This document shows positions 3,047-34,130 of a stretch of 64,000 bases of DNA, piece after piece. Location of the stretch: NCBI GenBank assembly GCA_963833425.1, contig CAWHXP010000011.1, positions 64,001 to 128,000 of the forward strand, in the 5' to 3' direction. The translations under genes were made by a program, and so were the position numbers. This DNA comes from an uncultured Methanosarcinaceae archaeon. Lineage in GTDB: Archaea > Halobacteriota > Methanosarcinia > Methanosarcinales > Methanosarcinaceae. The notes under the pieces are model-generated. The model did not search any database. It saw only the letters and a program-made list of their open reading frames with translations, and was not told the DNA's origin. Within the stretch, counting starts at the first letter, position 1; every line of letters starts with the position of its first letter.

Positions 3047-4157
3047 TTACGAATGAAGTACCGATAGTATATCATCGGGTCTTGCCCGCCTTACAATTCC
3101 ACTTATAGGGTTTTTTATCCCTGTAAGATTATTGGAACTTCCATTCAGGATCATTAAATTAGCTTTATTTCCCTTTTCTATCGAACCTAGTGGAATCCTG
3201 CTCAGTTATAAAAGAACCATTAAGTGTGCAAATTTTAAATACTTGTCTATCCTCAATTGAAAAAACCTTGGACATAAATTCCATTTCAGCAAACATATTT
3301 ACTGAATTTAGCATTACATTATCTGTTCCTGCAGCTACTTTGAGTCCAGCCTCCAGCATTTCTGCAATAGGTGCCATGCCAGCTCCTGTGACAAAATTTG
3401 ATCTTGGACATACTACTACCGGAATTTTCGCATCAGCCACATATTCAATATCTTTTTTTGTGGCAGTAGTTAGATGAATTAGGAGATCAGGCTCAAGTGA
3501 TAGTGCTTTTTCTATATCGCTCCGATTCTTTTCTCCTGCATGAATTGCAAAGAACTTTTTCAGATCTCGTGTGTAGGTTGCGATCTCCTCCAATATTACA
3601 AGATCAAGATCATTTGCCCCGCTCATTCCAATTCCGTTGGAATGTAGAAGAACTCTTTTTACTTCGTCAAGTATCACTATGAGGGGTAATTCAGGCTTTT
3701 CAGGTCTACCGAGTATCATGGAATGAATTTCAAGCCCTTCAAGAGCTTTATTTAGGGCTTCAACTCCTAAAATTCCCCCTTCTCTAAAATCTGCAAAGGC
3801 ATAGGTACCTGTTTCGATCATATCAAATAGAGACTTTCTCATACTTTCTATAAGGATTTTATACGGCGTTTCTCTGAGAATTTCATGCTTTATTCCATCT
3901 GGATATTTTACGAGAGAATCGAGATCTTTCTGAATCCGAAAGCCAGAAATTTTCCCTAAAGGAGGATCTTTGAGTACCGAATCTCCAAGGTGAGTGTGGG
4001 CATTGACAAAACAGGGAGCTATTATATTGGAAGAACACGTGTGTTCCTCTCCAATTTCTGTAATTATTCCGTTATTTATGCAGATATAACCCTCAATAGT
4101 TTCCAGTTCGGGACCTGCAATGATTGTTCCGGAAATAATCTTTTCATTACTGTACAT
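3047..4157 (-). CDS. Amidohydrolase superfamily protein (deaminase-like), one frameshift near 3188
   Basis: NAHTH, IHAGE and GTDN metal-binding motifs. Removing one base at ~3188 restores the typical C-terminus GSIEKGNKANLMIL...RRARPDDILSVLHS*. Confidence 0.85.
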
Positions 4158-5800: not shown

Positions 5801-6260
<460 letters not shown>

Positions 6261-6828
6261 CACTATAACTATTTTAGATTATGTAGTCGGTTTTGCTTCT
6301 CGCCAAACCGCTCTTCATACTATTTTTGAAGATATATTATTTTTATTGTTTTACCAAGTGATTTTTCCTATATTATTTTGGAATAATTTCGCCTCAAATT
6401 TTTTATAATTTCTCCATACTCTCACAACCTACAAAAAACTAAATATTATTCTAAGTATTGATTCTACTGGCAATAGAGTTCTAAAAGATATTTTCTGGTG
6501 ACCCTAGGTATTCAAGTTTCAAGGTAATGTGGAGCTTTCTGTCGTATCATTGAATGAATTCTTCAAAGATTTCAAACTTGCCTCTGTAAAACTATGGTAT
6601 ACATTGAATCATTTCTCAATTTTTCAGTTTATCTGAGGATTTTTTAACCATGCAAGTATTGGCTTATTTGCTTCTGTGATCCATTATTAGTTTCTTTAAT
6701 GGCATATATTCCAGTATTGTCTGAAGAGTTCGACCATCACTTAGATCGTATTTTGCGTGTTGCAATCATAGTCAACTTACAAATTAATTACATTTTTAAA
6801 AACCAATTATAGTTGGAAACGTAATTAT

Positions 6829-6918
6829 AGAGAATTTCGATAAATCACTACGTTTCTTCATATGTTCATAAAGGGTATAATACAACTAGTGAAAACCAAA
6901 GGCTAATAGAAATTCTCT
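6829..6918. mobile_element. MITE, IS5-type, inverted relative to the 5033 copy
   Basis: Ends AGAGAATTTCGATAAA ... TAATAGAAATTCTCT; internal ATAAAGGGTATA is the reverse complement of the core of the 5033 copy. Confidence 0.7.
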
Positions 6919-7226
6919 TTAATTTATCATGTTAACTTATTCTTTCAAAAAATAAATATTCAGAATTTGAGAATATTTTAGCTACATTAGATGCATTCAT
7001 GTATATACTAACTAAATATATTTTATTATAATTTTATCCAGCTAATGCTTTAGTAGTGTTCTCCTAATCATTAATTTTCTGGTATACAACTTTTTATTTA
7101 TAGGGGATAGCTTCAAATTATTTATATAGTTGTATTACATAATAACAATGGGGCTTTCAGTACAAGGACAGAGGTGTGTTATTCACAATTGATGAACATC
7201 TTATGAAAGAAAAGGGGATACAATAC

Positions 7227-7472
7227 ATGGAACAGATAAAGAATTGTATAATTGATTATTTGAAGGCTAACTCTTTTATGGACAAGGATACCAAATTTGG
7301 AGATAATGATTCTCTTACTCAGAGCGGAATTATAGATTCAATTGGTCTGCTTGAACTCGTGGACTACATCAGTGAGAAATATTCGATTGAAATTCCTGAA
7401 GACATGCTAACGCCGGAAAACTTTGACTCATTGCAGGGAATTACTAATATGATACTCAAGCTGGCGAAGTGA
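7227..7472 (+). CDS. Acyl/aminoacyl carrier protein (phosphopantetheine attachment domain)
   Basis: 81-aa acidic protein with SL..SGIIDSIGLLELV (conserved Ser) and IEIPEDMLTPENFDS; its stop overlaps the next start (GTGA). Confidence 0.9.
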   Translation: MEQIKNCIIDYLKANSFMDKDTKFGDNDSLTQSGIIDSIGLLELVDYISEKYSIEIPEDMLTPENFDSLQGITNMILKLAK

Positions 7473-8957
7473 AAAAAATGCGAATTGATGCGTATATCAC
7501 AGAATACGCCAGAATAACTCCTCAAAATATTGCTCTTGAAGAAGGCAAAAATTCAGTTTCCTATGGCTGTCTTGATGAGGATATAAATATTCTCGCTTCG
7601 TCTCTGATGGATTTTGAACATTGCAGATTTGCAATACTGGCAGAGTCTGGTATACAATATATAAAAATACTTATGGCTGTATACAGGTCAGCCAACATTG
7701 CAATCCCTCTTCCGATCGAATTCCCAAAATTCAGTCTTGAATTGATCCTTGATGCTGACAATGTCAATAATATAATTGCAACAGATACACAGTATTTTAG
7801 ATTTGGAGAGAGTTTTTTTGAACGCTTTGGAACCGTGATCATTGTTGACAATGATAATTCTTTAAATATTCTCCGTAGGAAGGCCGAATCAGAAACAAAT
7901 AAACCGAAACTTCGACTGGTCCTTTACACCTCAGGCACAACAGGTACTCCAAAAGGAGTCATGTTGAGTGACAAAAACCTGGTAGCAAATGCAAAATCAA
8001 TAATAGAAGTGCTTGGAATAACTCCAAAAGATAAAGCAGCACTTGTTATATCCATGCACCATGCTTTTGGGAATTCCATAATAGATTCCCACATTATGGC
8101 TGGCGGATCAATCAGAATTGGAAGCATGAATTTTATGGATTCGGTTTTCAATCTGGTTGAGTCAGAAGTATCCATATTCTATGGAGTGCCCAGCACATAT
8201 CGTATACTTCTCAAGTATCCAGATAGATTCAAAAAAGCTTTTGCTAATGTCAGAATTGCTGCATCTGCTGGTGGCGGCATGGATCGAAAGATTATAACTG
8301 ATATATGGGGACTAACTCCTAATATCGATATTTTGCCAATGTATGGCCAGACGGAAGCTACAGCACGGCTTGCCTACCTTCCAGCAGAAGATGTGAATAA
8401 ATTCATTGACACTATAGGAAAAGCAATTCCAGGGGTTGAGCTGGATGTCTTTGATTCTGAGTACAGATCAGTAGAACCAAATATAACAGGTGAATTGGTT
8501 GCTAGGGGGGACAATATCCTGTTAGGTTACCTAGATGATGAAATCTCCACTAAGGAGAGGATCATAGATGGGTGGCTGCATACAGGAGACCTTGCACAAA
8601 AATTGCCTAATGGGTATATTAAACTGCTGGGTCGTAAGGACGATATCATTAAAATTGGCGATCATCGTGTGAACCCAAGAGAAATTGAAAGGCATATAGA
8701 GGAGAATAACAAGGTTTCCAAAGTTTTTGTTGTGCCTGTATCCCATGAACTTTTGGGAACTGCGATCAGCCTCATGGTCATACCTACGAAGGGGACAGAA
8801 ATCAATACATCTATTTACATTCTGCCGGAAGAGCCTGCCAGGTTACCTGTGCCCAAGAGAAATATTACTCATAGATAATCTCCCATTAAGCGAGAACGGA
8901 AAAATATCCAATCGATCCATTATAGAGGAATACAAACATGTCAAAGCTAGTATGTAA
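7469..8957 (+). CDS. AMP-binding adenylate-forming enzyme (acyl-CoA/acyl-ACP ligase family), one frameshift at ~8810
   Basis: YTSGTTGTPKGV, YGQTEA, LHTGDL and GRKDDIIK motifs. Removing one base at ~8810 restores LPGYLCP...LPLSENGKI with the catalytic Lys. Confidence 0.9.
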
Positions 8958-9948
8958 AAAATGTGTTCTGGATTCGGATATCCCAGGTATAGATATTAAT
9001 AAGGAAACTGGTCTCTGCCATTTTTGTGAGACTTACACTCCTCTTTTATCACAGGAAAAGAGTGAATATCTGAGTAAAATTGATGAGCTGTTTAAAAATT
9101 GCAGCGGAAAGGGTAATTATAGCGTTATTTATGCACTTTCCGGTGGGAAGGATTCTTCATACACGCTTTACAAGCTCAAAAAAGAATATCCTTTCCTGAA
9201 TGTTTTGGCTGTTCAGTTCGATAATGGATTTATTTCTGAAAATGCAATAAAAAATGCCAAAAAGATGTGCAAGGTCACAGGCTGCGATTATTTTCAGCTG
9301 ACAATAGAGAAGGATATACTTTACGATACATTTCGAAAAGCGGCCGAATCTTACGATGCATTTCCTAAATTCGCTAAATACCGAGCCAGTGATATCTGCA
9401 ATATCTGTATCACTATCATCAAACAGAAACTTATAGAACAGGCCATCATTCAGAAGGCACCTTTTATTGTATTTGCTTTCACAGCTGGACAATCTCCTAA
9501 TCCTATAATTAACTTATCACTTAACTTCATACAATGGTCCAGGAATCTATTTGAAAAGCAGCTTCAAAAAATAGGCGTTGATGATAAAGATGAATTATTC
9601 CTCATAAAAAGTGAGATTATTGAGAATATGGGGGAGAATGTTCTAAGTATTCTGCATCCATTGTGTCTATGGGAATATAGTGAGGATAAAGTACTGAGGA
9701 CATTGTTGGAAATTGGTTGGGAGCTACCGGATATTAAAGACAGTAATTCAACCAATTGTACATTGAACTCCTTTGCCTGCTATAACCATCTAGAGAAATA
9801 TGGGTTCCATCCTTATGCCTTTGATACAGCAGGACTTGTCAGAAGTGGGGAAATGTCTAGGGAAGAAGGATTTGAAAAAATTAACCAGGAGCTATCTAAA
9901 CAATTGATAGAAGAAGCTGCAAATAAGCTTAAGATTAAAAACAAATAA
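8938..9948 (+). CDS. PP-loop (adenine nucleotide alpha hydrolase) enzyme, N-acetyl-sugar amidotransferase-like
   Basis: N-terminal CxxC...CxxC, SGGKDSSY PP-loop, DNGF, CNIC, STNC and VRSGEMSREEG motifs. Confidence 0.75.
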   Translation: MSKLVCKKCVLDSDIPGIDINKETGLCHFCETYTPLLSQEKSEYLSKIDELFKNCSGKGNYSVIYALSGGKDSSYTLYKLKKEYPFLNVLAVQFDNGFISENAIKNAKKMCKVTGCDYFQLTIEKDILYDTFRKAAESYDAFPKFAKYRASDICNICITIIKQKLIEQAIIQKAPFIVFAFTAGQSPNPIINLSLNFIQWSRNLFEKQLQKIGVDDKDELFLIKSEIIENMGENVLSILHPLCLWEYSEDKVLRTLLEIGWELPDIKDSNSTNCTLNSFACYNHLEKYGFHPYAFDTAGLVRSGEMSREEGFEKINQELSKQLIEEAANKLKIKNK

Positions 9949-10035
9949 TTTTAAAAAATTATTAACTACGATTTAATCCATAATTATGATATATTTTATT
10001 AATATAAATAAAATGGCTATTAGAGGGATGATATT

Positions 10036-11028
10036 ATGCAAGCAGTTGAAGAATTGAATGTGCAGATAATGGAAGAACTGAGCAGAGACATTGAAAATCT
10101 AGCTTCAAATATTAGAGGTTTTATTAGAAGTCAGATAGTGAGTTTTAAGAAAAAAGGAGTGCTTTTAGGAGTTTCAGGTGGAATTGATTCAGCTGTTAGC
10201 TCTTACACTTTGTGTACAGGAGCTTGGGAGTGAAAACGTGTATGGGCTTCTCCTTCCTGAAAAAGAATCTGCTCCTTCCAGTAAAATTTTGGGCGCAGAA
10301 ATCTGCGAAAGCCTGGGTGTGTCGTATGAGGATGTTCCTATATCTCCAATCCTGGAGTCCCTTGATATTTATGAGAAAAAGGAACAGATCATTAAGAGAA
10401 CCTGCCCAGAATACGATGCAAGAATTCATAAAACATCTCTAATACTGCCTGATTTCCTTAACCAGGGGCTTTTGAATGTCCCTTATATCCGATTGATAAA
10501 GGATGGTAAGACGGTTGCAAAATACAGGCTAAAGGCAAGTGACTATCTGGAACTGATCGGACTGCAGGGTGTCAAGCAGCGGTCTAGAATGGTAATTCAG
10601 TACATGTATGCTGAAAAGATGAACTATCGTTGTTTGTGGGACAACCAACAAGACTGAACTTGTCCTTGGTCAGTTCGTAAAATATGGAGATGGAGGTGTA
10701 GACCTCGAGCCTCTTGCTGATTGTTATAAGACTCAGATATATGCCCTTGGGAAATTTTTGGATGTCAATGAAGAGATTATGAAACGCCCTCCCAGTGCTG
10801 ATACATGGAGTCATTATACGACTGATGAGGAGTTCTACTGGCGTATGCCCATGCACGTTATTGATCAGTTGCTATATTCCCAAGAACAGCATTTACCTTT
10901 GGAGATAATTGAAAAGAACACAGGATTATCCAGAGATCAGATAGAAAAGGCTCAAAGACACCTTAATAAAATAAAAATACACTGAATATATAAGGGCTAG
11001 CCCCCCTATTTACTATCTGAGCAAATGA
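10036..11028 (+). CDS. NH3-dependent NAD+ synthetase-like protein (NadE family), frameshifts at ~10198, ~10628 and ~10975
   Basis: GVSGGIDSA PP-loop and KQRSRM; after correction VCGTTNKTE..GQFVKYGDGG.D.EPL...YKTQ, followed by RPPSADTW. Confidence 0.82.
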
Positions 11029-11120
11029 AATTTAGACCAAATAAATTATCGGAGGCAAAGATGTAATAGCAACAATCAAGAAATTTTGCTACTTTGCCTG
11101 AAGCAGAAAACCAAGCATTT

Positions 11121-11213
11121 AGAGGATTTCGATTAAACCTCTGATTTCTATAGGTCATTTATATACCATTTTATAAGTATATGACGAAATATTAGGGTTT
11201 ATCGAAATCCTCT
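11121..11213. mobile_element. MITE, IS5-type
   Basis: Ends AGAGGATTTCGATTAAAC ... GTTTATCGAAATCCTCT; interior similar to the 5033 copy. Confidence 0.82.
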
Positions 11214-11235
11214 ATTAATTATATCTGACATATCT

Positions 11236-12369
11236 ATGAATACAAAGGTTTCTATTGTCCGTTGCATTGATTATTCGAACGCAAAGGAAGCGATCAAAGA
11301 GTCGCTAAATCTGATAGGTGGTCTTGAGAAGATCATAGCTCCCGGAAACCGCGTATTGCTCAAACCCAATGTACTTGGTATAAGGCCTCCAGAGGATGCA
11401 GTCACAACTCATCCAGCAATAGTATCTGCAATGTGTGAACTGGTTTCAGAGGTGGGAGGTGTTCCACTTATAGGAGATGGGTCCGGAATTGTAAGCTCCG
11501 GATCTACTACCACTTCGCAGGCATTTAAGGTAACTGGAATTGAAGATGTGGCTTCCAGGTTCGGGGTAGAGTTGATCAATTTTGAGACATACGGTTATGT
11601 TGAGGTTGATAGTCCAGATCCCAGACAATTGCCACATTTATACATATCAAAAGCGATACTCGAGGCAGATGTAATAATTTCGCTTCCAAAGCTCAAGACC
11701 CATGAGCTCACGCTGTATACAGGAGCAGTAAAAAATTTCTTTGGTATCCTACCTCAAAAAAATAGGAAGCAGGCCCACTTTCTGGAAGATCGTGATCATT
11801 TTGGAGAGGTAGTCGCTGACATTTACTCTATTGTCAAGCCTCATCTTGCAGTCATGGATGGTGTAGTCGGGATGGAGGGGAATGGTCCATCGAATGGTAC
11901 GCCTATCTTTGTAGGTGTAATCATGGCAAGTTATGACTGTGTAGCCCTGGATATTGTGGCCTCTGAGCTAATAGGGATTGACCCTCTAAAAGTTCCCACA
12001 AACAGAGCTGCAATCTCAAGGGGATTTGGGACGGAGTGTCTGGAGATTGTTGGAATACCTTTGGCCGAAGTAAAAGTTAGGTTCAAAAGACCAGAAGGTG
12101 GTGTTACTGCCATGATACCATCTTTTCTGATGAGGATCCTTCGAAGGCAGTTAACTGTAAAGCCCTTTATCAACACCTCAAGTTGTACACTTTGCAAAAC
12201 ATGCATTTTGAATTGCTCGGCAAATGCCATTGAAGAAGTAGGCAGGTCTCTCAAAATAAATGAAAGAAAATGTATTCAGTGTTATTGTTGCCGCGAACTT
12301 TGCCCCAAAGATGCGGTAGGAATAAAGAAATCACTACTTCTAAAGCTGGTTACAAGAAATAAAAACTAA
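11236..12369 (+). CDS. DUF362 domain protein with C-terminal 2x[4Fe-4S] ferredoxin
   Basis: VLLKPN, TTHP, LPKLKTH, TGAVKNFFG and GMEGNGP motifs; CxxCxxCxxxC twice at the C-terminus. Confidence 0.9.
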   Translation: MNTKVSIVRCIDYSNAKEAIKESLNLIGGLEKIIAPGNRVLLKPNVLGIRPPEDAVTTHPAIVSAMCELVSEVGGVPLIGDGSGIVSSGSTTTSQAFKVTGIEDVASRFGVELINFETYGYVEVDSPDPRQLPHLYISKAILEADVIISLPKLKTHELTLYTGAVKNFFGILPQKNRKQAHFLEDRDHFGEVVADIYSIVKPHLAVMDGVVGMEGNGPSNGTPIFVGVIMASYDCVALDIVASELIGIDPLKVPTNRAAISRGFGTECLEIVGIPLAEVKVRFKRPEGGVTAMIPSFLMRILRRQLTVKPFINTSSCTLCKTCILNCSANAIEEVGRSLKINERKCIQCYCCRELCPKDAVGIKKSLLLKLVTRNKN

Positions 12370-12495
12370 CAAAAAATTTATCCCAAAATTAAGTCCTCTT
12401 CAGTGCTGTTAATCAAAAATTAATTATAAAAAATATAATTATTTGTCAAAAGTAATGTAGAGTGAAAGATTTAATTGAAAAATGGGGTCACTAAT

Positions 12496-13029
12496 ATGAG
12501 TACCTTAATATCTAATAGAGATAAAGTAACCTATCGCGAAATTGCTGATCATTACAACAGCAATAAACTACTATTTGGAATAAAGTATTTCAAAAACTGG
12601 ATTTTGGAACTACTTGCCTCAAATGTTCCTGTTCCTTCATGGAGAGCAAAACTGCATAGGATGAGGGGTGTAAATGTTGGGAAGAACGTATACATCGGTT
12701 ATAACGTAGTTTTTGACAGGTTACACCCTGAATTGATTACAGTAGGGGATTATGCTGAAATCGGTGATAGGTGCATATTATCTGCACATTCAAGGGGCAG
12801 CTTAACCACAAGACAGGCATATCCAAGAAGTATGGCTCCAATCATAATCGGTCGCGGGGTTTCTGTTAATCCAGGGTGTATAATTACTCAGGGAGTCAAA
12901 ATTGGAGAAAATTCAATAATAGGAATAGGGTCTGTAGTTAGCCGTGATATTTCTCCAAATAGTCTAGCTCTGGGCTACCCGGCAAAAGTTATTAAAAAAC
13001 TTGATTGTGTAGGGGAGCTTCAAACCTAA
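12496..13029 (+). CDS. Hexapeptide-repeat (left-handed beta-helix) acyltransferase
   Basis: GVNVGKNVYIG, VGDYAEIGDRC, ITQGVKIGENSIIGIGSVVSRDI and GYPAKVIK. Confidence 0.88.
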   Translation: MSTLISNRDKVTYREIADHYNSNKLLFGIKYFKNWILELLASNVPVPSWRAKLHRMRGVNVGKNVYIGYNVVFDRLHPELITVGDYAEIGDRCILSAHSRGSLTTRQAYPRSMAPIIIGRGVSVNPGCIITQGVKIGENSIIGIGSVVSRDISPNSLALGYPAKVIKKLDCVGELQT

Positions 13030-13086
13030 TTCTTCATATTTTTTTAATTATTTGTCGGATCTGTATTTGAATGCGATACCAAGTTG

Positions 13087-13941
13087 GGTTCCGTTGCAAA
13101 AAATCTTTTCTAAGGATACAATAGAATGAAAGAAAACCAAAGACAGTAATATGCTATCTAATTCCTTTAAATAAAAGCATTATGAAGGAGAAATTATCCT
13201 ATTGAATGTAAGATGGTACTTAAAATACCCATTGAGCTAAAGAAATTTAAATGAAATGATGATAGAAAGAGAAATTCAAATTGATCACAGTACTATAAAT
13301 GAGATGGATACATCAATATTCCCCTGAAATAGAAAAGAAGATAAGAAGACATTTAAGACCAACAAATGATTCGTGGAGAGTTGATGAAACCTATATCAAA
13401 GTAAAAGGTAAATGAAAATATCTTTACAGAGCAGTTGACTCAAATGGTGATACAATCAATTTCATGTTAACTGCAAAACGAAACTAAAAGCAGTGAAGAA
13501 ATTCTTCAAGAAAGCTTTGAGCTCTAATCAGAATCAAATTCCAAGAGCAATAACCTTTGATAAGAATCAAGTTTATCCTATTGTCATACACGAACTGAAA
13601 AATGATAAAATACTACCTAAAAACGTAGGCATTAGACAAATCAAGTATTTGAATAAAATTATAAAACAAGATCATAGATCTATAAAGCGAATCGTTAATC
13701 CAATGTTAGGATTTCAGTCTTTTCGCTCTGCAAGTAAGATTTTAAAAGGAATTGAAGCTATGAATATGGTTAAAAAAGGACAAATCAAGAATCCAAACTA
13801 CTCTGGTCTTAATGAAGCTAAATATACCAATCAATTATTTGGAATAGTTCTGTAATATTGATACATTTTCCTTGAATCTTTTGACTTTTATTTATTATTC
13901 ATATATTTACGTGCTTATTCTGCGATTTTTGCAACGGAACC
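13087..13941 (+). mobile_element. IS6-family element (855 bp) with inactivated transposase
   Basis: TIRs GGTTCCGTTGCAAA / TTTGCAACGGAACC; transposase motifs WRVDETYIKVKG and YRAVDS interrupted by stops and a frameshift. Confidence 0.95.
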
Positions 13942-15916: not shown

Positions 15917-17032
15917 TCATGGACTTCCCGATGTTTTAACCCAACCAAAACCTGCAAAGTATTTTTGGAAAATATCCGCCCTTAAAGCAAATATTCCATC
16001 ATTTGTCGCCATCGGAATAGATAACCAAGTTCCATTGGGGTCATTATAATAAGGCTCATTCCAAGCGACCCACGTAATATTAGCTGTGTTTAGAGTAGCT
16101 TCATAGGTTCCCCATGGATTTCGTAAAACAATATAATTCTGATTATTAGCAGACGCCCAGCCCAAAATCGAATATGAATGGTTAGCTACTAAATGTGCAC
16201 TGTTGTAATTTACATCAGGGGAAGGGGCTGTGCCATAAGTCCATGCGACCATCGGATTAAACGTTTTAGAACCAGTACTGTTTTCACGAACTGTTTTCCA
16301 TATATCATCGGCTGAAAGAGATGAGTTGGTTCTGTAATTGGGGGGTAAATTCGTGAGTGTAGCTAATGCTCTAACTGGGTCACCAAAAGCAATTTTCGTA
16401 ATATCTGGTTCATCACTCGCATCTTTAGTAGACCACTTAGCAAATGCCTTTTCATACAAAGCTGGCCAAAGTTCCCCATTTTCGCTAGAACGAGCATAGA
16501 TGAACAAATTGGAGGACATAGGTAGTAATGAAGTAATTTCGACTTTTTTACAAACTCCTCCATCATAAAAGTCAAACTCATAATAGACTTTACCCCCAAT
16601 ATAGGCGGACTTATCAGCAATCACGTAAGTGTCAGCCCATGCTAATGATGAAAGCGCTGCAATAAAGTAGCAGTCCGCTACTGCTCCTTGAATGGGGTCG
16701 GTAACCTCTGCACCATTTACAAAAAATTCACCTGCAGTATTCACCCATGTCATGTTATCCATAGCTTCAACATGTTCTTTAAGGGCACCTATTCCAGTGG
16801 ATACGTCAACTGGGTACGAAACGCTATTAGTTTTAGGGTCATATTTCATACCTGCATACAGTGGTGAGCCGTGTTTGGGGTCAAACATTTTTTCATAAGG
16901 CATTTTTAATGCTTGCTCTAATAGTTTATGTGGGTTTGCTATCCTTTCCCAATTGATTTTTTTCTTCAAAACCACTTCTGTCAAAGCATAGGGGTTAATA
17001 ACGCCAATGTTAATATTAGATGTTTCAGCCAT
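15917..17032 (-). CDS. Calpain-family (peptidase C2) cysteine protease
   Basis: QGAVADCYFIAAL (Cys), ELWPALYEKAFAK, NHSYSI (His), LRNPWG (Asn); GGAGG RBS; no obvious signal peptide. Confidence 0.92.
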   Translation of the reverse strand: MAETSNINIGVINPYALTEVVLKKKINWERIANPHKLLEQALKMPYEKMFDPKHGSPLYAGMKYDPKTNSVSYPVDVSTGIGALKEHVEAMDNMTWVNTAGEFFVNGAEVTDPIQGAVADCYFIAALSSLAWADTYVIADKSAYIGGKVYYEFDFYDGGVCKKVEITSLLPMSSNLFIYARSSENGELWPALYEKAFAKWSTKDASDEPDITKIAFGDPVRALATLTNLPPNYRTNSSLSADDIWKTVRENSTGSKTFNPMVAWTYGTAPSPDVNYNSAHLVANHSYSILGWASANNQNYIVLRNPWGTYEATLNTANITWVAWNEPYYNDPNGTWLSIPMATNDGIFALRADIFQKYFAGFGWVKTSGSP

Positions 17033-17866: not shown

Positions 17867-18721
17867 GGTTCCGTTGCAAAAAATTCAAAATAATCATATT
17901 AATCTATGAATAATAAATAAAAGTCAAAAGATTCAAGGAAAATGTATCAATATTACAGAACTATTCCAAATAATTGATTGGTATATTTAGCTTCATTAAG
18001 ACCAGAGTAGTTTGGATTCTTGATTTGTCCTTTTTTAACCATATTCATAGCTTCAATTCCTTTTAAAATCTTACTTGCAGAGCGAAAAGACTGAAATCCT
18101 AACATTGGATTAACGATTCGCTTTATAGATCTATGATCTTGTTCTATAATTTTATTCAAATACTTGATTTGTCTGATGCCTACGTTTTTAGGTAGTATTT
18201 TATCATTTTTCAGTTCGTGTATGACAATAGGATAAACTTGATTCTTATCAAAGGTTATTGCTCTTGGAATTTGATTCTGATTAGAGCTCAAAGCTTTCTT
18301 GAAGAATTTCTTCACTGCTTTTAGTTTCGTTTTGCAGTTAACATGAAATTGATTGTATCACCATTTGAGTCAACTGCTCTGTAAAGATATTTTCATTTAC
18401 CTTTTACTTTGATATAGGTTTCATCAACTCTCCACGAATCATTTGTTGGTCTTAAATGTCTTCTTATCTTCTTTTCTATTTCAGGGGAATATTGATGTAT
18501 CCATCTCATTTATAGTACTGTGATCAATTTGAATTTCTCTTTCTATCATCATTTCATTTAAATTTCTTTAGCTCAATGGGTATTTTAAGTACCATCTTAC
18601 ATTCAATAGGATAATTTCTCCTTCATAATGCTTTTATTTAAAGGAATTAGATAGCATATTACTGTCTTTGGTTTTCTTTCATTCTATTGTATCCTTAGAA
18701 AAGATTTTTTGCAACGGAACC
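17867..18721 (-). mobile_element. IS6-family element (855 bp) with inactivated transposase; inverted near-copy of 13087-13941
   Basis: Same TIRs and the same inactivating stops and frameshift as the first copy. Confidence 0.95.
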
Positions 18722-32760: not shown

Positions 32761-33464
32761 GCTTTGAACTAAAGCAATTATTACTAGGCTAGGATGAATC
32801 TTCTAATTTTCATGATTTAGTTTTTAAAATTGTATCTATTTATATTCTGTGTCTGTAAAACCCGCACGAAATGATAGCCATGAAGATTGAATTAATCGTG
32901 AATAGGTGATGTGTGGTGCTTGAGCTGCTTTATGACTTCGCAGGAGCATCTGCAACCTACTCTTGTGGGTTTATGACACCGACGGACTGGAATTATCTTG
33001 CCATCGTTTCACCCGGTTTTCTACGAATAAGATCTATGAAGGTTCTAAATCAATCGGATTCCGCATCCCACTGAATGCGATCAATGTATGTATATTCTGC
33101 GTGCTCCACATGCAAAGATTATAATTGGGAAGTATATGGAAATCCAGATTCAAGAACCAATAATACTGTGAATTCATCAAATTGCAAATGTTAGCCGCTG
33201 CCAAGTTATGATACGCACTCAATAAACTTCTGATCGAAAGTCTACTATCCGATGGATTACCAGAAATGTACCAAAAAGCACTTTGAAGATTTTGAAAGCA
33301 GCTAATTTAATATTTAGCAATTTAGATTAGCATCAAGTTATAGATGAATGTAAAGCTGGATGATTGTAGTCTGAAAAGGATTTTTTAACTTTAATACGTT
33401 TTCCCAGCCTTTCTCTACCATCAATACTGAGATTCTATACAGTTTTAATAAATCAGAGGCTCTT

Positions 33465-33575
33465 AAGGACTGATGCGGTAGAACGGAAAATCAGCAGCCT
33501 TAAGCCCTCAACTATCCTAAAATTAAACTACAGTTTTCATTGTACTTAATTCATTTCTCAAGTGCGTAAGTCCTA
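33465..33575. mobile_element. MITE-like element with (T)AGGACTTACGCA-type ends
   Basis: AAGGACTGATGCG ... TGCGTAAGTCCTA; related copies at 55789-55905, 49225-49316 and (inverted) ~33600-33709. Confidence 0.6.
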
Positions 33576-34130
33576 AAAATATCCTAGTTTCTTAATATTA
33601 TTTGGGAAACAAAGAAATCAAATATAATTGGATGTTGCAATTTAAACTTTGATTTTAGACAGTATAGGTTCAATGCTATTCATTATTTGATTCAACTGTA
33701 TAATTCCTAATGAATATTAAATAAGCAATGTAAACATTTTTTTTAAAACACTGATATTCTGAATAATAATTAAATATACTAAATAAATAATTAAATAACT
33801 CTAAATATAATCATATATAATTTTCATATTACCTATTATGCATATAAATATATCTACTTGTTTATATTACCTTATGTATTAATAATATTATTGGAGTCAG
33901 GCTCCTAAAAGAGGATATCTGAAGTTATAATAGTTAATAGCACTGTTTGTAAAATATGGAAATTAGAGAGTGAATAAAGTTAGAGGAATGTTATGGGTAC
34001 GTATTAATTTATTAAAGAAGTAGATAAAAACGTTTTATTAAATTTTTTACACATAATCTTCATGATTTTTTTTAAATTCGATCTATAATCCACAGACAAG
34101 AAGAACTATAAAAAGAAGGGAGAAATCAAA

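What the first reader, a model, noticed from the sequence alone, without database searches (positions are those of the whole stretch)
7227..13029. Carrier-protein-dependent biosynthetic cluster in a methanogenic archaeon
Seen: six co-oriented genes, the first three with overlapping stops/starts, encoding a carrier protein (GIIDS), an adenylation enzyme, a PP-loop amidotransferase-like enzyme, a NadE-like enzyme, a DUF362-ferredoxin and a hexapeptide acyltransferase. Known: archaea make isoprenoid lipids and generally lack ACP-based fatty-acid synthesis; similar ACP + ligase + NadE/AsnB sets occur in bacterial surface-polysaccharide loci. Inference: the ligase loads an acid or amino acid on the carrier, and the two ATP-pyrophosphatases form amide bonds on a sugar or small molecule. 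Possible products are a modified methanochondroitin or S-layer glycan, or an unknown metabolite. No KS or condensation domain is present.
Basis: partly seen in the sequence, partly recalled or inferred. Interest (0 to 1): 0.82.

Follow-up and report, generated by a model that had tools for sequence, protein, structure and literature searches.

The report
Carrier-protein acyl-tailoring operon in Methanosarcina
A methane-producing archaeon carries a conserved, transcribed set of genes that load a small acid onto a dedicated carrier protein and probably rework an amide group on it, a widespread but chemically unsolved pathway that in bacteria sits in slime-polysaccharide loci.

Summary
The six co-oriented genes are real: ACP (Ser38 in GIIDS), ANL ligase, NASAT-type PP-loop enzyme, PRK00876-type NadE paralog, DUF362 with two 4Fe-4S motifs, and a hexapeptide acetyltransferase. 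The ligase, PP-loop and NadE genes carry four 1-nt insertions. The single-copy rpS15 gene next door carries the same kind of lesion, and every relative and environmental contig examined lacks them, so they are most likely assembly errors.

The cluster keeps its order in 8 of 8 Methanosarcina loci fetched. An Sfp-type PPTase lies directly upstream in 6 of 8. In this genome the only PPTase-like ORF and the only PP-binding domain found pair up by default. RNA-library contigs cover all genes and bridge all junctions.

ACP + ligase + PP-loop is a core module found next to each other in 44 of 62 bacterial loci, often in EPS/exosortase loci, with NadE-like (10) or AsnB (33) beside it. The PP-loop domain also occurs fused to the ligase and inserted into NRPS A domains, the architecture published for the AMDH domain.

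Best reading: a carboxylate on an ACP-bound acid is amidated, then the amide is ATP-activated to a nitrile, amidine or thioamide. The product is unknown. Verdict: new variant of a known kind.

The parts
6823..6924 (.). MITE-like element (inverted copies of the motif TAGAG[GA]ATTTCGAT) upstream of the operon. Not a specific operator.
   Evidence: Inverted repeat I5. The motif has 246 hits with at most 1 mismatch genome-wide, in pairs about 79 nt or about 1.1 kb apart.
7227..7472 (+). Acyl carrier protein, 81 aa from the ATG at 7227. Phosphopantetheine attachment at Ser38 in GIIDS.
   Evidence: PF00550 25.5 bits, over the cut-off. D37, S38 and G40 are invariant in 34 homologs. It is the only PP-binding hit in the genome.
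7469..8957 (+). ANL-superfamily acid-ACP ligase (492 aa in the relative). The frame is broken by a 1-nt insertion at about 8809. The likely start is the ATG at 7478.
   Evidence: PF00501 171.5 bits, and an AMP-binding_C tail in the second frame. The gene is intact in the relative. The insertion is listed. Three contigs spanning the site are each one letter shorter.
8938..9948 (+). NASAT-type PP-loop ATP pyrophosphatase with an N-terminal Zn ribbon, SGGKDS, CxxC and a third conserved Cys. A 1-nt insertion at 9934 alters only the last residues.
   Evidence: TIGR03573 111-112 bits, under the cut-off of 203. Invariant residues. AF2 model pLDDT 93.8. Foldseek 8wex TM 0.69.
10036..10985 (+). NadE paralog of the PRK00876 type (347 aa in the relative). 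It is split into three frames by 1-nt insertions at 10198 and 10627.
   Evidence: NF002048 matches of the three pieces. The intact ortholog scores 466 bits against a cut-off of 313. Insertions. A separate housekeeping NadE lies on C3.
11120..11214 (.). MITE (perfect copies of the 14-nt terminal motif, inverted, 81 nt start to start) in the NadE-DUF362 spacer.
   Evidence: It explains the joints and loose ends at 11159-11215. The spacer is only 38 nt in another Methanosarcina.
11236..12369 (+). DUF362 domain protein with a C-terminal 2x[4Fe-4S] ferredoxin module.
   Evidence: PF04015 209.8 bits plus Fer4 families. Two complete CxxCxxCxxxC motifs are invariant in 14 orthologs. It is present in 14 of 18 archaeal and 0 of 62 bacterial loci.
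12475..13029 (+). Left-handed beta-helix (hexapeptide) acetyl/acyltransferase of the WcaF / maltose O-acetyltransferase type.
   Evidence: PF00132 40.9 bits. NCBIfam WcaF family 62 bits, under its cut-off. Present in 8 of 8 Methanosarcina loci.
13493..13855 (+). IS6-family transposase fragment that ends the synteny with the closest relative.
   Evidence: PF13610 73 bits, NF033587 80 bits. The alignment to the relative stops at window 13087.

Best explanation
This is an intact, expressed thiotemplate operon that is mis-assembled in this record. Its heart is a module shared with many bacteria.

Proposed steps:
1. An Sfp-type PPTase makes holo-ACP. Its gene lies on another contig here and directly upstream in most relatives.
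2. The ANL ligase adenylates a small carboxylic acid and thioesterifies it to the ACP. The Methanosarcinaceae ligases lack the Asp that binds an alpha-amino group.
3. The NadE paralog amidates a free carboxylate of the tethered acid with ammonia. AsnB may play this part in many bacteria.
4. The NASAT-type PP-loop enzyme adenylates that amide oxygen and replaces or eliminates it, giving a nitrile, an amidine or a thioamide.
5. The DUF362-ferredoxin and the hexapeptide acetyltransferase, seen only in the Methanosarcinaceae versions, then tailor or pass on the product. The likely destination is a surface glycan or a small metabolite.

Shown here: gene content, conservation, fusions, the PPTase link, presence in RNA libraries.
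Inferred: every chemical step, the substrate and the acceptor.
For: 1. Synteny. The order ACP-ligase-PP-loop-NadE-DUF362-Hexa is kept in 8 of 8 fetched Methanosarcina loci. One locus lacks NadE and has a truncated ligase; another lacks DUF362. The PP-loop gene is present in 22 of 24 congeners and gives strong hits in several genera of the family (51 of 121 genomes at E<=1e-40).
2. PPTase. It is adjacent and co-oriented in 6 of 8 loci. In this genome there is one PPTase-like ORF and one PP-binding domain.
3. Core module. ACP lies within 4 kb of the PP-loop gene in 53 of 62 bacterial loci, the ligase in 47, both in 44. NadE-like is beside it in 10 and AsnB within 6 kb in 33.
4. Fusions. P0126 joins a ligase (36% identical over 480 aa to the Methanosarcina ligase) to a PP-loop domain (39%). 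Seven NRPS proteins checked by Pfam carry the domain between the A core and AMP-binding_C, ahead of a T domain. The five of them aligned share all hallmark motifs.
5. Published relatives. The AMDH domain (SGGKD motif, inserted in an A domain) dehydrates T-bound Asn to cyanoalanine (PMC7966384, passages). CtaC thioamidates PCP-bound peptides (PMC6772006, passages). NASAT is proposed to make acetamidino groups (PMC10607449, passages).
6. Fold. The whole-length fold match is to NASAT 8wex, TM 0.69.
7. Transcription. RNA-library contigs bridge all five junctions. RNA depth is 0-5 upstream and 49-232 over 7182-8169 (ACP and the 5' part of the ligase), while the DNA runs lie between 2 and 17 throughout.
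8. Ligase-to-ACP loading was shown in vivo for S. meliloti SMb20650/SMb20651 (PMC7232532, passages). Homology of that pair to this one was not tested here.
Against: - No substrate, product or acceptor is identified.
- The PP-loop protein scores under the NASAT cut-off (112 against 203 bits).
- No sequence of CysH-AMDH, AlbIV, CtaC or the S. meliloti proteins could be compared, so these links rest on architecture and motifs.
- The order of the NadE and PP-loop steps is a guess. NadE-like is missing from 52 of 62 bacterial loci, and AsnB could serve other ends, such as ammonia supply or uronamide formation.
- The Methanosarcina clusters have no glycosyltransferase neighbours.
- The RNA evidence comes from contigs of 90-99% identical relatives in metatranscriptomes, not from this strain.
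- Frameshift events are denser here (4 in about 5 kb) than in the other sequence compared, so real decay in this strain is not excluded.
- The PPTase-like ORF of this genome scores just under the Pfam cut-off (22.9-24.3 against 25).
Confidence: 0.5

Rival explanations
1. Canonical NASAT chemistry off the carrier. ACP and ligase only supply an unusual acyl donor. A transferase puts the acyl group on an amino sugar. The PP-loop enzyme then turns the resulting N-acyl amide into an amidine on the sugar, as proposed for WbuX/PseA/WbpG. The NadE paralog amidates a uronic or other carboxylate of the glycan.
For: The best family match and the best fold match are NASAT. The tetracysteine and PP-loop signatures are met. 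Bacterial modules sit in EPS/exosortase loci with glycosyltransferases, flippases and deacetylases (at least one EPS-type gene in 31 of 62 loci). A hexapeptide transferase is in the archaeal cluster.
Against: The score is under the NASAT cut-off. The family is fused to the ligase and embedded in NRPS modules directly ahead of a T domain, which points to carrier-bound substrates. No sugar-nucleotide genes lie beside the Methanosarcina clusters. Methanosarcina has separate, more canonical NASAT paralogs (185 bits).
Confidence: 0.22
2. Sulfur rather than nitrogen chemistry. The PP-loop enzyme is a [4Fe-4S]-dependent, CtaC-like thioamide or thiocarboxylate synthetase acting on the ACP-bound acyl group, with the DUF362-ferredoxin as a redox or sulfur partner.
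For: C154xxC157 aligns by hhalign (probability 96.7%) with the CxxC of this genome's NcsA/TtuA-like protein. After NASAT, the next fold matches are NcsA, TtuA, [4Fe-4S]-LarE and YcfA. CtaC has the same layout of structural Zn, D77/S78 and C154/C157/C284, and works on PCP-bound substrates. The hosts are strict anaerobes.
Against: The third Cys (C274) was not aligned with the third TtuA/NcsA ligand. The same three Cys are kept in the canonical-type NASAT paralogs, and LpNASAT was reported with Zn only. The local motifs of CtaC, read from the mutagenesis primers in its supplement, differ from ours. No shared accession was found with the published CtaC homolog list. TM-scores to the sulfur insertases are low (0.33-0.39).
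Confidence: 0.13
3. The locus is a decaying pseudogene cluster in this strain: the four insertions are real and the pathway is dead here.
For: There are four frame-breaking or end-changing insertions within about 5 kb. Eight of nine orthologs tested elsewhere in the genome lie in a single frame. IS6 fragments and MITEs flank the locus.
Against: The adjacent single-copy rpS15 gene and an amidohydrolase carry the same kind of non-homopolymer 1-nt insertion. A broken sole rpS15 is not credible biology. All four environmental runs leave out the rpS15 base, and where contigs span the cluster sites they fit loss of the inserted bases. The genome has 21 contigs yet only 80% marker completeness.
Confidence: 0.12
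4. Chance neighbourhood: the NadE gene is ordinary NAD synthetase and the genes are functionally unrelated.
For: NCBIfam would name the intact ortholog NAD(+) synthase (466 bits).
Against: A separate short NadE (275-aa frame, PF02540 295 bits) exists on C3. Synteny is kept across archaeal genera and, for the core, across many bacterial phyla. Fusion proteins exist.
Confidence: 0.03

Closest known systems
AMDH domain of the NRPS CysH (cystobactamid) and its homolog in AlbIV (albicidin). PMC7966384, passages read.
   Same: It is an ATP-binding SGGKD-motif domain working with an adenylation enzyme on a carrier-tethered substrate. It activates a primary carboxamide (Asn to beta-cyanoalanine or isoasparagine). 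Relatives of the window's PP-loop protein have exactly this placement, inserted in an A domain ahead of AMP-binding_C and T. Those aligned share the Zn ribbon, SGGKDS, CxxC, GQ, [ST]NC and VR motifs.
   Different: The window's protein stands alone beside a stand-alone ligase and ACP. The ligase is not an Asn-type A domain (HHAFG in place of FDxS). A NadE paralog is attached. No CysH or AlbIV sequence was available, so the kinship is by architecture and motif only.
N-acetyl sugar amidotransferase (NASAT: WbuX/WbpG/PseA; LpNASAT, PDB 8WEX). PMC10607449, passages read.
   Same: Best sequence-family and fold match (TIGR03573 over the full length; 8wex TM 0.69/0.64, 20% identity). It has the tetracysteine Zn motif CXXCXn[GN]XCXXC and the PP-loop SGGXDS.
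   Different: The score (112 bits) is far under the family cut-off (203). The profile aligns with 8wex only over the N-terminal about 125 residues. The genomic partners are ACP and ligase, not sugar-nucleotide genes. Methanosarcina has separate paralogs closer to NASAT (185 bits).
CtaC / CtaI / CtaH / CtaB of closthioamide biosynthesis. PMC6772006 passages and supplement parts 6-7; PMC7183216 passages.
   Same: An NRPS-independent thiotemplated system: a stand-alone ANL ligase loads an acid on a stand-alone carrier, a PPTase is in the cluster, and an AANH enzyme with structural Zn, an ATP site and a CxxC...C motif modifies an amide on the carrier-bound substrate. The hosts are anaerobes.
   Different: CtaC inserts sulfur into backbone amides and needs a [4Fe-4S] cluster. 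Its local motifs differ. There is no ATP-grasp, papain-like ligase or second carrier here. Direct sequence comparison could not be run.
Sinorhizobium meliloti pSymB genes smb20650 (ligase) and smb20651 (ACP). PMC7232532, passages read. The operon make-up asnB-ACP-ligase-nadE1 is taken from earlier unchecked notes of this scan, which cite Ramos-Vega et al. 2009; that paper was not seen.
   Same: A dedicated ACP is co-transcribed with an ANL ligase that acylates it in vivo and cannot replace FadD. It is said to be joined by an amidotransferase and an extra NadE. The product is unknown.
   Different: No NASAT-type PP-loop enzyme, DUF362 or hexapeptide transferase is reported there. Homology of its proteins to those of the window was not tested.
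DltA/DltC and exosortase-A-associated acyl-CoA ligase (TIGR03098)
   Same: A stand-alone ligase plus a small carrier protein serve cell-envelope polymer decoration. TIGR03098 is the ligase's second-best NCBIfam match (188.6 bits). The bacterial modules lie beside exosortase and EPS genes.
   Different: All scores are far under the cut-offs (TIGR03098 cut-off 592). There is no MBOAT/DltB-type transferase. The PP-loop and NadE enzymes have no counterpart in Dlt.

Membership tests
NASAT (N-acetyl sugar amidotransferase, TIGR03573 WbuX) | PP-loop SGGXDS | tested here: met
   S68 G69 G70 D72 S73 are invariant in 30 homologs. The feature is as defined in PMC10607449.
NASAT (N-acetyl sugar amidotransferase, TIGR03573 WbuX) | Tetracysteine Zn motif CXXCXn[GN]XCXXC | tested here: met
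   C6, C9, G25, C27 and C30 are invariant or nearly invariant.
NASAT (N-acetyl sugar amidotransferase, TIGR03573 WbuX) | Score at or above the curated NCBIfam cut-off (203.2 bits) | tested here: not met
   110.9 bits for the window protein and 112.2 bits for the intact relative.
NASAT (N-acetyl sugar amidotransferase, TIGR03573 WbuX) | Overall fold of LpNASAT (8WEX) | tested here: met
   Foldseek E 5e-14, TM 0.69/0.64 over about 360 columns; model pLDDT 93.8.
NASAT (N-acetyl sugar amidotransferase, TIGR03573 WbuX) | Converts a sugar N-acetyl group to acetamidino | not testable with these tools
   Needs an enzyme assay.
AMDH domain (CysH/AlbIV) | SGGKD ATP-binding motif | tested here: met
   SGGKDS is present. 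The motif is as named in PMC7966384.
AMDH domain (CysH/AlbIV) | Inserted into an NRPS adenylation domain | tested here: not met
   The window protein is a stand-alone 336/345-aa ORF. Only relatives (P0214, P0218, P0226, P0244, P0248, P0263, P0267) have the insertion.
AMDH domain (CysH/AlbIV) | Sequence homology to CysH AMDH | not tested
   No CysH or AlbIV sequence could be obtained through the tools.
CtaC-type thiotemplated thioamide synthetase | Three-Cys [4Fe-4S] motif of TtcA/TtuA type | tested here: inconclusive
   The CxxC aligns with the CxxC of the NcsA/TtuA-like protein (hhalign probability 96.7%). The third Cys was not aligned. Metal content is unknown.
CtaC-type thiotemplated thioamide synthetase | Sequence homology to CtaC (Ccel_3258) | not tested
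   The sequence was not obtainable. Ten Clostridia homologs share no accession with the published list.
NAD(+) synthase subfamily NF002048 (PRK00876) | Score at or above the cut-off of 313 bits | tested here: met
   The intact ortholog scores 466.1 bits. The window copy is split into three pieces scoring 52, 193 and 92 bits.
NAD(+) synthase subfamily NF002048 (PRK00876) | Is the cell's NAD synthetase | tested here: inconclusive
   A separate short NadE (PF02540 294.6 bits) is on C3, and two more PRK00876-like paralogs exist. Activity was not tested.
Acyl carrier protein (PF00550) | Score over the cut-off and a conserved attachment Ser in a DS motif | tested here: met
   25.5 bits against 20.8. 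D37 and S38 are invariant in 34 sequences. DS is kept in at least 90% of 66 loci.
Acyl carrier protein (PF00550) | A cognate phosphopantetheinyl transferase is present | tested here: met
   A 232-aa Sfp-size ORF lies on C16 (22.9-24.3 bits, just under the cut-off of 25). Its orthologs (46-57% identical) lie directly upstream of the ACP in 6 of 8 relatives, one of them scoring 27.2 bits.
ANL adenylate-forming ligase (PF00501) | AMP-binding core and C-terminal subdomain | tested here: met
   171.5 bits. The motifs SGTTGxPKG, YGQTE, TGD and GRKDD are present. The C-terminal subdomain is in frame in the relative (40 bits).

The most novel reading that the evidence does not exclude
Methanosarcinaceae run a genuine thiotemplated pathway. 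A dedicated ACP carries a small diacid whose free carboxylate is turned stepwise into an amide (NadE paralog) and then a nitrile, amidine or thioamide (stand-alone AMDH/NASAT/CtaC-like enzyme). A ferredoxin-linked DUF362 enzyme then processes it, for example by reduction. That would give DUF362 its first function and methanogens their first carrier-protein-built metabolite or glycan decoration. The same core would explain an uncharacterised cassette in EPS loci of many bacterial phyla.
Probability: 0.3. Interest if true: 0.75.

Novelty: new variant of a known kind. Interest (0 to 1): 0.55.

Why it matters
Archaea are held to lack ACP-based chemistry almost entirely. [quoted passage not shown]

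Here a complete carrier system (PPTase, ACP, loading ligase, tailoring enzymes) is conserved across several genera of a major methanogen family. It also appears in peat and other environmental metatranscriptome libraries.

Its core module is widespread in bacterial exopolysaccharide loci and has no known product. The stand-alone PP-loop enzyme ties together three enzyme types studied separately: NASAT, the NRPS AMDH domain and, possibly, CtaC. This gives a tractable soluble system for working out how they activate amides.

The searches run here found no description of the archaeal cluster. Those searches cover only the held library.

Tried and rejected
- **Complex prediction (ACP with the PP-loop enzyme).** Re-sends were not passed on. 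The tool was declared unavailable. Nothing was folded.
- **DUF362 structure.** The AF2 model from 14 close orthologs was poor (pLDDT 46.1), so no fold search was run. The PDB sequence search hit only the ferredoxin part. The ESM Atlas returned only DUF362 clusters.
- **Getting CtaC for a direct comparison.** A search from a Clostridia homolog and a cluster look-up of 10 hits gave no R. cellulolyticum protein and no accession shared with the published homolog table.
- **A shared operator upstream of the ACP and DUF362 genes.** The inverted repeats proved to be copies of an abundant MITE/IS terminal repeat. The idea was rejected. The 'joints' 6844 to 11187 have sides of only 20-22 nt and are explained by that repeat.
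- **Sigma-70 promoter and terminator scan.** Counts equal those of shuffles, and the model does not apply to archaea.
- **Genome-wide frameshift rate from relatives' genes.** Only 14 orthologs were found, too few for a rate.
- **Earlier findings by place and by sequence.** Nothing was returned.
- **Literature.** DUF362 is mentioned only as the LarA outgroup and clan mate. Npun_F2552 gave 0 papers. AANH + NRPS + thioamide gave only the CtaC paper.
- **Tree.** The careful search did not finish. Only the quick tree is reported.

Full report
**What is there**

Window 7227-13029 holds six co-oriented + strand genes.

- **ACP, 7227-7472.** PF00550 25.5 bits against a cut-off of 20.8. The best NCBIfam matches are specialised carriers such as AmcB and AsbD, all under their cut-offs.
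- **ANL ligase, 7469/7478-8878.** PF00501 171.5 bits. [quoted passage not shown] The C-terminal subdomain lies in another frame (8727-8957).
- **PP-loop enzyme, 8938-9948.** TIGR03573 WbuX 111 bits against a cut-off of 203.
- **NadE-like gene.** It lies in three frames (10036-10233, 10178-10657, 10758-10985), all matching NF002048 PRK00876.
- **DUF362 protein with two ferredoxin motifs, 11236-12369.**
- **WcaF/Mac-type hexapeptide transferase, 12475-13029**.

Upstream lie the ribosomal protein S15 gene and housekeeping genes. Downstream lie an IS6 transposase fragment, a calpain-like protease gene and a second, inverted IS6 fragment. Near-identical proteins carry Methanosarcina names.

**Are the frameshifts real?**

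I compared the window with a relative that is 94% identical in DNA over 7.9 kb (handle G019).

- The window has single-base insertions at 8809 (ligase), 9934 (last codons of the PP-loop gene), 10198 and 10627 (NadE), and one extra A at 7472.
- The same comparison shows a 1-nt insertion at 5934 inside rpS15, and another inside the neighbouring amidohydrolase gene.
- None of the four frame-breaking insertions extends a homopolymer.
- rpS15 is single-copy in this genome and is split at residue 44/45. That is not credible as biology.
- In G019 all these genes are whole: ligase 492 aa, PP-loop 345, NadE 347, S15 152.
- Contigs were laid from four public runs, two DNA and two RNA libraries, at 90-99% likeness. 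All four runs leave out the rpS15 base and base 7472. Two of the four leave out the base at 10627-10629.
- Three contigs spanning 8809 are each one letter shorter, with one gap. One 1,229-letter contig over 9456-10685 has five gaps and a net loss of one letter, exactly the pattern seen against G019.

Against a uniform error model:

- Of 26 G019 ORFs compared, 12 had non-3n indel events (29 events: 17 insertions and 12 deletions in this genome). Most outside this region are compensating pairs a few bases apart.
- Of 9 orthologs of other relatives' genes found elsewhere in the genome, 8 lie in one frame.

The errors are therefore locally clustered. I put about 0.8 on assembly error and about 0.12 on real decay.

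**Conservation**

- The PP-loop gene is found at 78-97% identity in 22 of 24 other genomes of the genus. In the 16 genomes of other genera of the order first sampled, only weak PP-loop hits appeared (28 of 41 genomes with any match).
- A family-wide profile search gave 51 of 121 genomes at E<=1e-40. Per genus the matches were g1 18/19, g20 12/13, g23 5/6, g26 11/11, g14 3/19 and g13 1/10. A few of these are about 140-165-bit hits to longer frames, probably paralogs. The other ten genera searched gave none.
- In 8 of 8 loci fetched from congeners the order ACP-ligase-PP-loop-NadE-DUF362-Hexa is kept. One locus has a truncated ligase and no NadE. Another lacks DUF362. Both belong to a genome that has two copies.
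- In another Methanosarcina the NadE-DUF362 spacer is 38 nt. The 250-nt spacer here holds a MITE (see below).

**The phosphopantetheinyl transferase**

The genome has one PF01648-like ORF, 232 aa and Sfp-sized, on contig C16. It scores 22.9-24.3 bits, just under the cut-off of 25.
- Its orthologs (46-57% identical) lie directly upstream of the ACP gene, co-oriented, in 6 of 8 relatives' loci. One of them scores 27.2 bits.
- The ACP of the window is the only PP-binding domain found in the genome.
- No condensation or ketosynthase domain was found. The genome is 80% complete, so this is weak evidence.
- The sole carrier and the sole PPTase therefore pair by default.

**Transcription**

RNA-library contigs of close relatives cover all six genes and bridge every junction:

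| Junction | Contig span |
|---|---|
| ACP / ligase | 7391-7681 |
| ligase / PP-loop | 8489-9308 |
| PP-loop / NadE | 9456-10685 |
| NadE / DUF362 | 10898-11386 |
| DUF362 / Hexa | 12124-13057 and 11971-12955 |

- In the two RNA runs the summed depth is 0-5 over 6441-7181 and 49-232 over 7182-8169.
- The two DNA runs lie between 2 and 17 over the same stretch.
- The silent upstream stretch argues against DNA carry-over.
- Caveats: these are contigs, not reads, and they come from relatives rather than this strain. A contig across two genes does not prove one transcript.

**The core module outside archaea**

A full-library HMMER search with the PP-loop protein found 2,542 proteins at E<=1e-3 and 65 at E<=1e-30. 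A profile of 30 of these (A1) fetched 80 genomic loci.

- 18 loci are archaeal: Methanosarcina, Methanolobus, Methanomethylovorans, Methanococcoides and one Methanomicrobiaceae MAG at 50% identity.
- 62 loci are bacterial, at 28-38% identity: Thermodesulfobacteriota, Nitrospirota, Myxococcota, Planctomycetota, Bacillota, Bacteroidota, Spirochaetota, Verrucomicrobiota, Patescibacteria and others.

Counts by tblastn:

| Feature | Bacterial loci (n = 62) | Archaeal loci (n = 18) |
|---|---|---|
| ACP within 4 kb | 53 | 15 |
| Ligase within 4 kb | 47 | 17 |
| ACP and ligase | 44 | 15 |
| NadE-like within 4 kb | 10 | 16 |
| AsnB within 6 kb | 33 | 0 |
| DUF362 | 0 | 14 |
| Hexapeptide transferase | 5 | 14 |
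| PPTase | 0 | 7 |
| FabG-like SDR within 4 kb | 1 | 6 |

Several misses are short contigs. In Methanolobus the SDR lies between NadE and DUF362.

Pfam on the neighbours of 11 loci shows the bacterial modules among polysaccharide export genes, Wzz/GNVR, exosortase EpsH, priming sugar transferase, GT2/GT4, flippases, the polysaccharide-deacetylase-DUF3473 pair, GNAT/FemAB-like proteins and dTDP-rhamnose genes. The Methanomicrobiaceae copy lies between DegT, GT2, a flippase and GT1. By the cruder tblastn count, 31 of 62 bacterial loci have at least one EPS-type gene.

The ACPs form a tight family. The motif GxIDSxGxxE has an invariant DS, and a second conserved PEN[LF]DS block is present.

A quick ML tree of 73 sequences puts the 16 archaeal rows in one clade (SH-aLRT 100), with the Methanomicrobiaceae MAG basal. 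The clade sits inside the bacterial radiation and is weakly (82) joined to two Bacillota rows, with a long-branch warning. This fits one old transfer from bacteria but does not prove it.

**What the PP-loop enzyme is**

- Thirty homologs share C6, C9, C27 and C30 (Zn ribbon), SGGxDS, R149, C154xxC157, G184-Q185, W261, N273-C274-N277 and R302.
- The tetracysteine motif and the PP-loop are the two signatures given for the NASAT family (PMC10607449, passages).
- The AF2 model is confident (pLDDT 93.8).
- Its best solved match over the whole length is LpNASAT 8wex (E 5e-14, TM 0.69). NcsA, TtuA, [4Fe-4S]-LarE and YcfA follow at TM 0.33-0.39.
- The TIGR03573 score is about half the cut-off.
- Methanosarcina has separate paralogs that score 185 bits.
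- The CxxC aligns with the CxxC of the genome's own NcsA/TtuA-like protein (hhalign probability 96.7%).
- The third Cys was not aligned. All three Cys are also kept in the NASAT-like paralogs.

**Fusions**

- P0126 (811 aa) and P0136 (873 aa) are ligase-PP-loop fusions. P0126 matches the Methanosarcina ligase at 36% over 480 aa and the PP-loop protein at 39%. It shares the ligase's unusual HHA[FY]GNSII motif.
- Seven NRPS proteins checked by Pfam carry the domain between the AMP-binding core and AMP-binding_C, followed by a T domain.
- Five of the seven (P0214, P0226, P0244, P0263, P0267) were aligned motif by motif. They keep every hallmark motif. BLASTP of all seven against the PP-loop protein gave 26-30% identity over nearly the full length, E 1e-27 to 1e-33.
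- The word-index search for longer proteins found six more, among them three further NRPS modules with a condensation domain and one AsnB-NASAT-type fusion. In that fusion only the first 121 residues resemble ours.
- The NRPS placement is what Gross et al. describe for the AMDH domain of CysH and AlbIV. That domain is inserted in an A domain and has an SGGKD motif. It dehydrates T-domain-bound asparagine to beta-cyanoalanine or isomerises it. It has many unannotated homologs, and no structural template was known (PMC7966384, passages).
I checked the paper's passages and the motif sharing of five NRPS-embedded relatives. I could not compare CysH itself.

**Mechanism proposed**

Three published enzyme types that share this protein's signatures activate an amide carbonyl by adenylation, according to their authors. 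The kinship of AMDH and CtaC with this protein was not tested by sequence.

- NASAT: amide to amidine on a sugar. This is proposed, not assayed.
- AMDH: amide to nitrile on a T domain. This was shown.
- CtaC: amide to thioamide on a PCP. This was shown (PMC6772006, passages).

NadE and AsnB chemistry turns a carboxylate into a primary amide (established family chemistry, recalled). Putting these together with the fusions and the constant ACP-ligase partnership gives this reading:

1. The ligase loads an acid with a second carboxylate.
2. NadE-like, or AsnB in many bacteria, amidates it.
3. The PP-loop enzyme converts the amide into a nitrile, amidine or thioamide.

Further inferences:

- The Methanosarcinaceae ligases have Ala where NRPS A domains have the alpha-amino-binding Asp (HHAFG against FDxS). 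The bacterial ligases tested from loci that also hold NadE-like (L043, L054, L080), and the fusion protein P0136, have SFDYG. A non-amino diacid is my guess for the archaeal system, and an Asp-like acid for some bacterial ones. This inference is weak.
- DUF362 belongs to the LarA clan (PMC11770544, passages) and has no known function. With its two [4Fe-4S] motifs I assume a redox tailoring step.
- The hexapeptide enzyme resembles acetyl-CoA-dependent O-acetyltransferases. It may acetylate the product or its acceptor.
- Nothing in the Methanosarcina neighbourhood names the acceptor.
- Loading of a dedicated ACP by its co-transcribed ligase has been shown in vivo for S. meliloti SMb20650/SMb20651 (PMC7232532, passages). 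Earlier notes of this scan say that operon also holds asnB and nadE1. I did not test homology.

**Novelty and verdict**

- The kinds of parts are known: stand-alone thiotemplate systems, NASAT, AMDH, CtaC and the S. meliloti operon.
- New here is the combination of a stand-alone AMDH/NASAT-type enzyme with ACP, ligase and a NadE paralog, and its extension by DUF362-ferredoxin, a hexapeptide transferase and a PPTase as a conserved unit in a methanogen family.
- The searches I ran returned no description of it. They cover only the held library, and bioRxiv supplements were not seen.
- I file it as a new variant of a known kind, interest 0.55. The main open points are the substrate, the N-versus-S-versus-elimination outcome, and the acceptor.

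Noticed in passing
window 5801-6260 (rpS15) and 3165-4157 (amidohydrolase): Both genes carry a single non-homopolymer 1-nt insertion relative to a 91-94% identical relative. rpS15 is single-copy and split at residue 44/45. Together with the four insertions in the cluster, this marks a local patch of assembly errors in C11 at about 67-75 kb.
   Followed up: yes
window 6823-6924, 11120-11214, also 40488 and others; genome-wide: The 14-nt motif TAGAGGATTTCGAT is the terminal inverted repeat of an abundant element. It has 246 hits with at most 1 mismatch in the genome, in inverted pairs about 79 nt apart (MITEs) or about 1.1 kb apart (a small IS). Copies sit upstream of the ACP gene and in the NadE-DUF362 spacer.
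   Followed up: partly
window 13493-13855 (+), 17953-18315 (-), 15917-17032 (-): Two inverted IS6-family transposase fragments bracket a calpain-family (Peptidase_C2) cysteine protease gene, which is unusual in archaea. Synteny with the closest relative ends at the first fragment.
   Followed up: no
G000:C4:993-1949 (-) and G000:C10 about 32849-33823 (+) (L117, L116): Two further PRK00876-type NadE paralogs (318 and 324 aa) each lie next to a TrmB-family regulator gene and are not near any carrier protein. With the short housekeeping NadE on C3, the genome has four NadE-family genes.
   Followed up: partly
proteins P0214, P0218, P0226, P0244, P0248, P0263, P0267, P0401, P0402, P0404, P0405: NRPS modules of the form C-A(PP-loop)-T. 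The five aligned motif by motif (P0214, P0226, P0244, P0263, P0267) keep the Zn ribbon and the CxxC plus [ST]NC cysteines of the NASAT-like family. If these are AMDH domains, AMDH, NASAT and the stand-alone enzymes form one family, for which LpNASAT (8WEX) would be a structural template. The 2021 AMDH paper said none existed.
   Followed up: partly
L106:4117-5256 (-), L107:4739-5890 (+), alignment A2: NASAT-like paralogs of Methanosarcina keep a CxxC that aligns with the CxxC of a NcsA/TtuA-like protein, plus a third Cys. The LpNASAT paper reports only the Zn site. Whether NASATs bind an Fe-S cluster when purified anaerobically seems untested.
   Followed up: no
protein P0403 (1025 aa): A fusion of a glutamine-dependent asparagine synthetase (residues 1-600) with a NASAT-type PP-loop domain (646-1025). 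It hints that AsnB beside these modules may feed ammonia to, or work in sequence with, the PP-loop enzyme.
   Followed up: partly
L015 and L016 (two loci of handle G007): One Methanosarcina genome has two copies of the cluster with complementary losses. One copy has a truncated ligase and no NadE. The other lacks DUF362.
   Followed up: no
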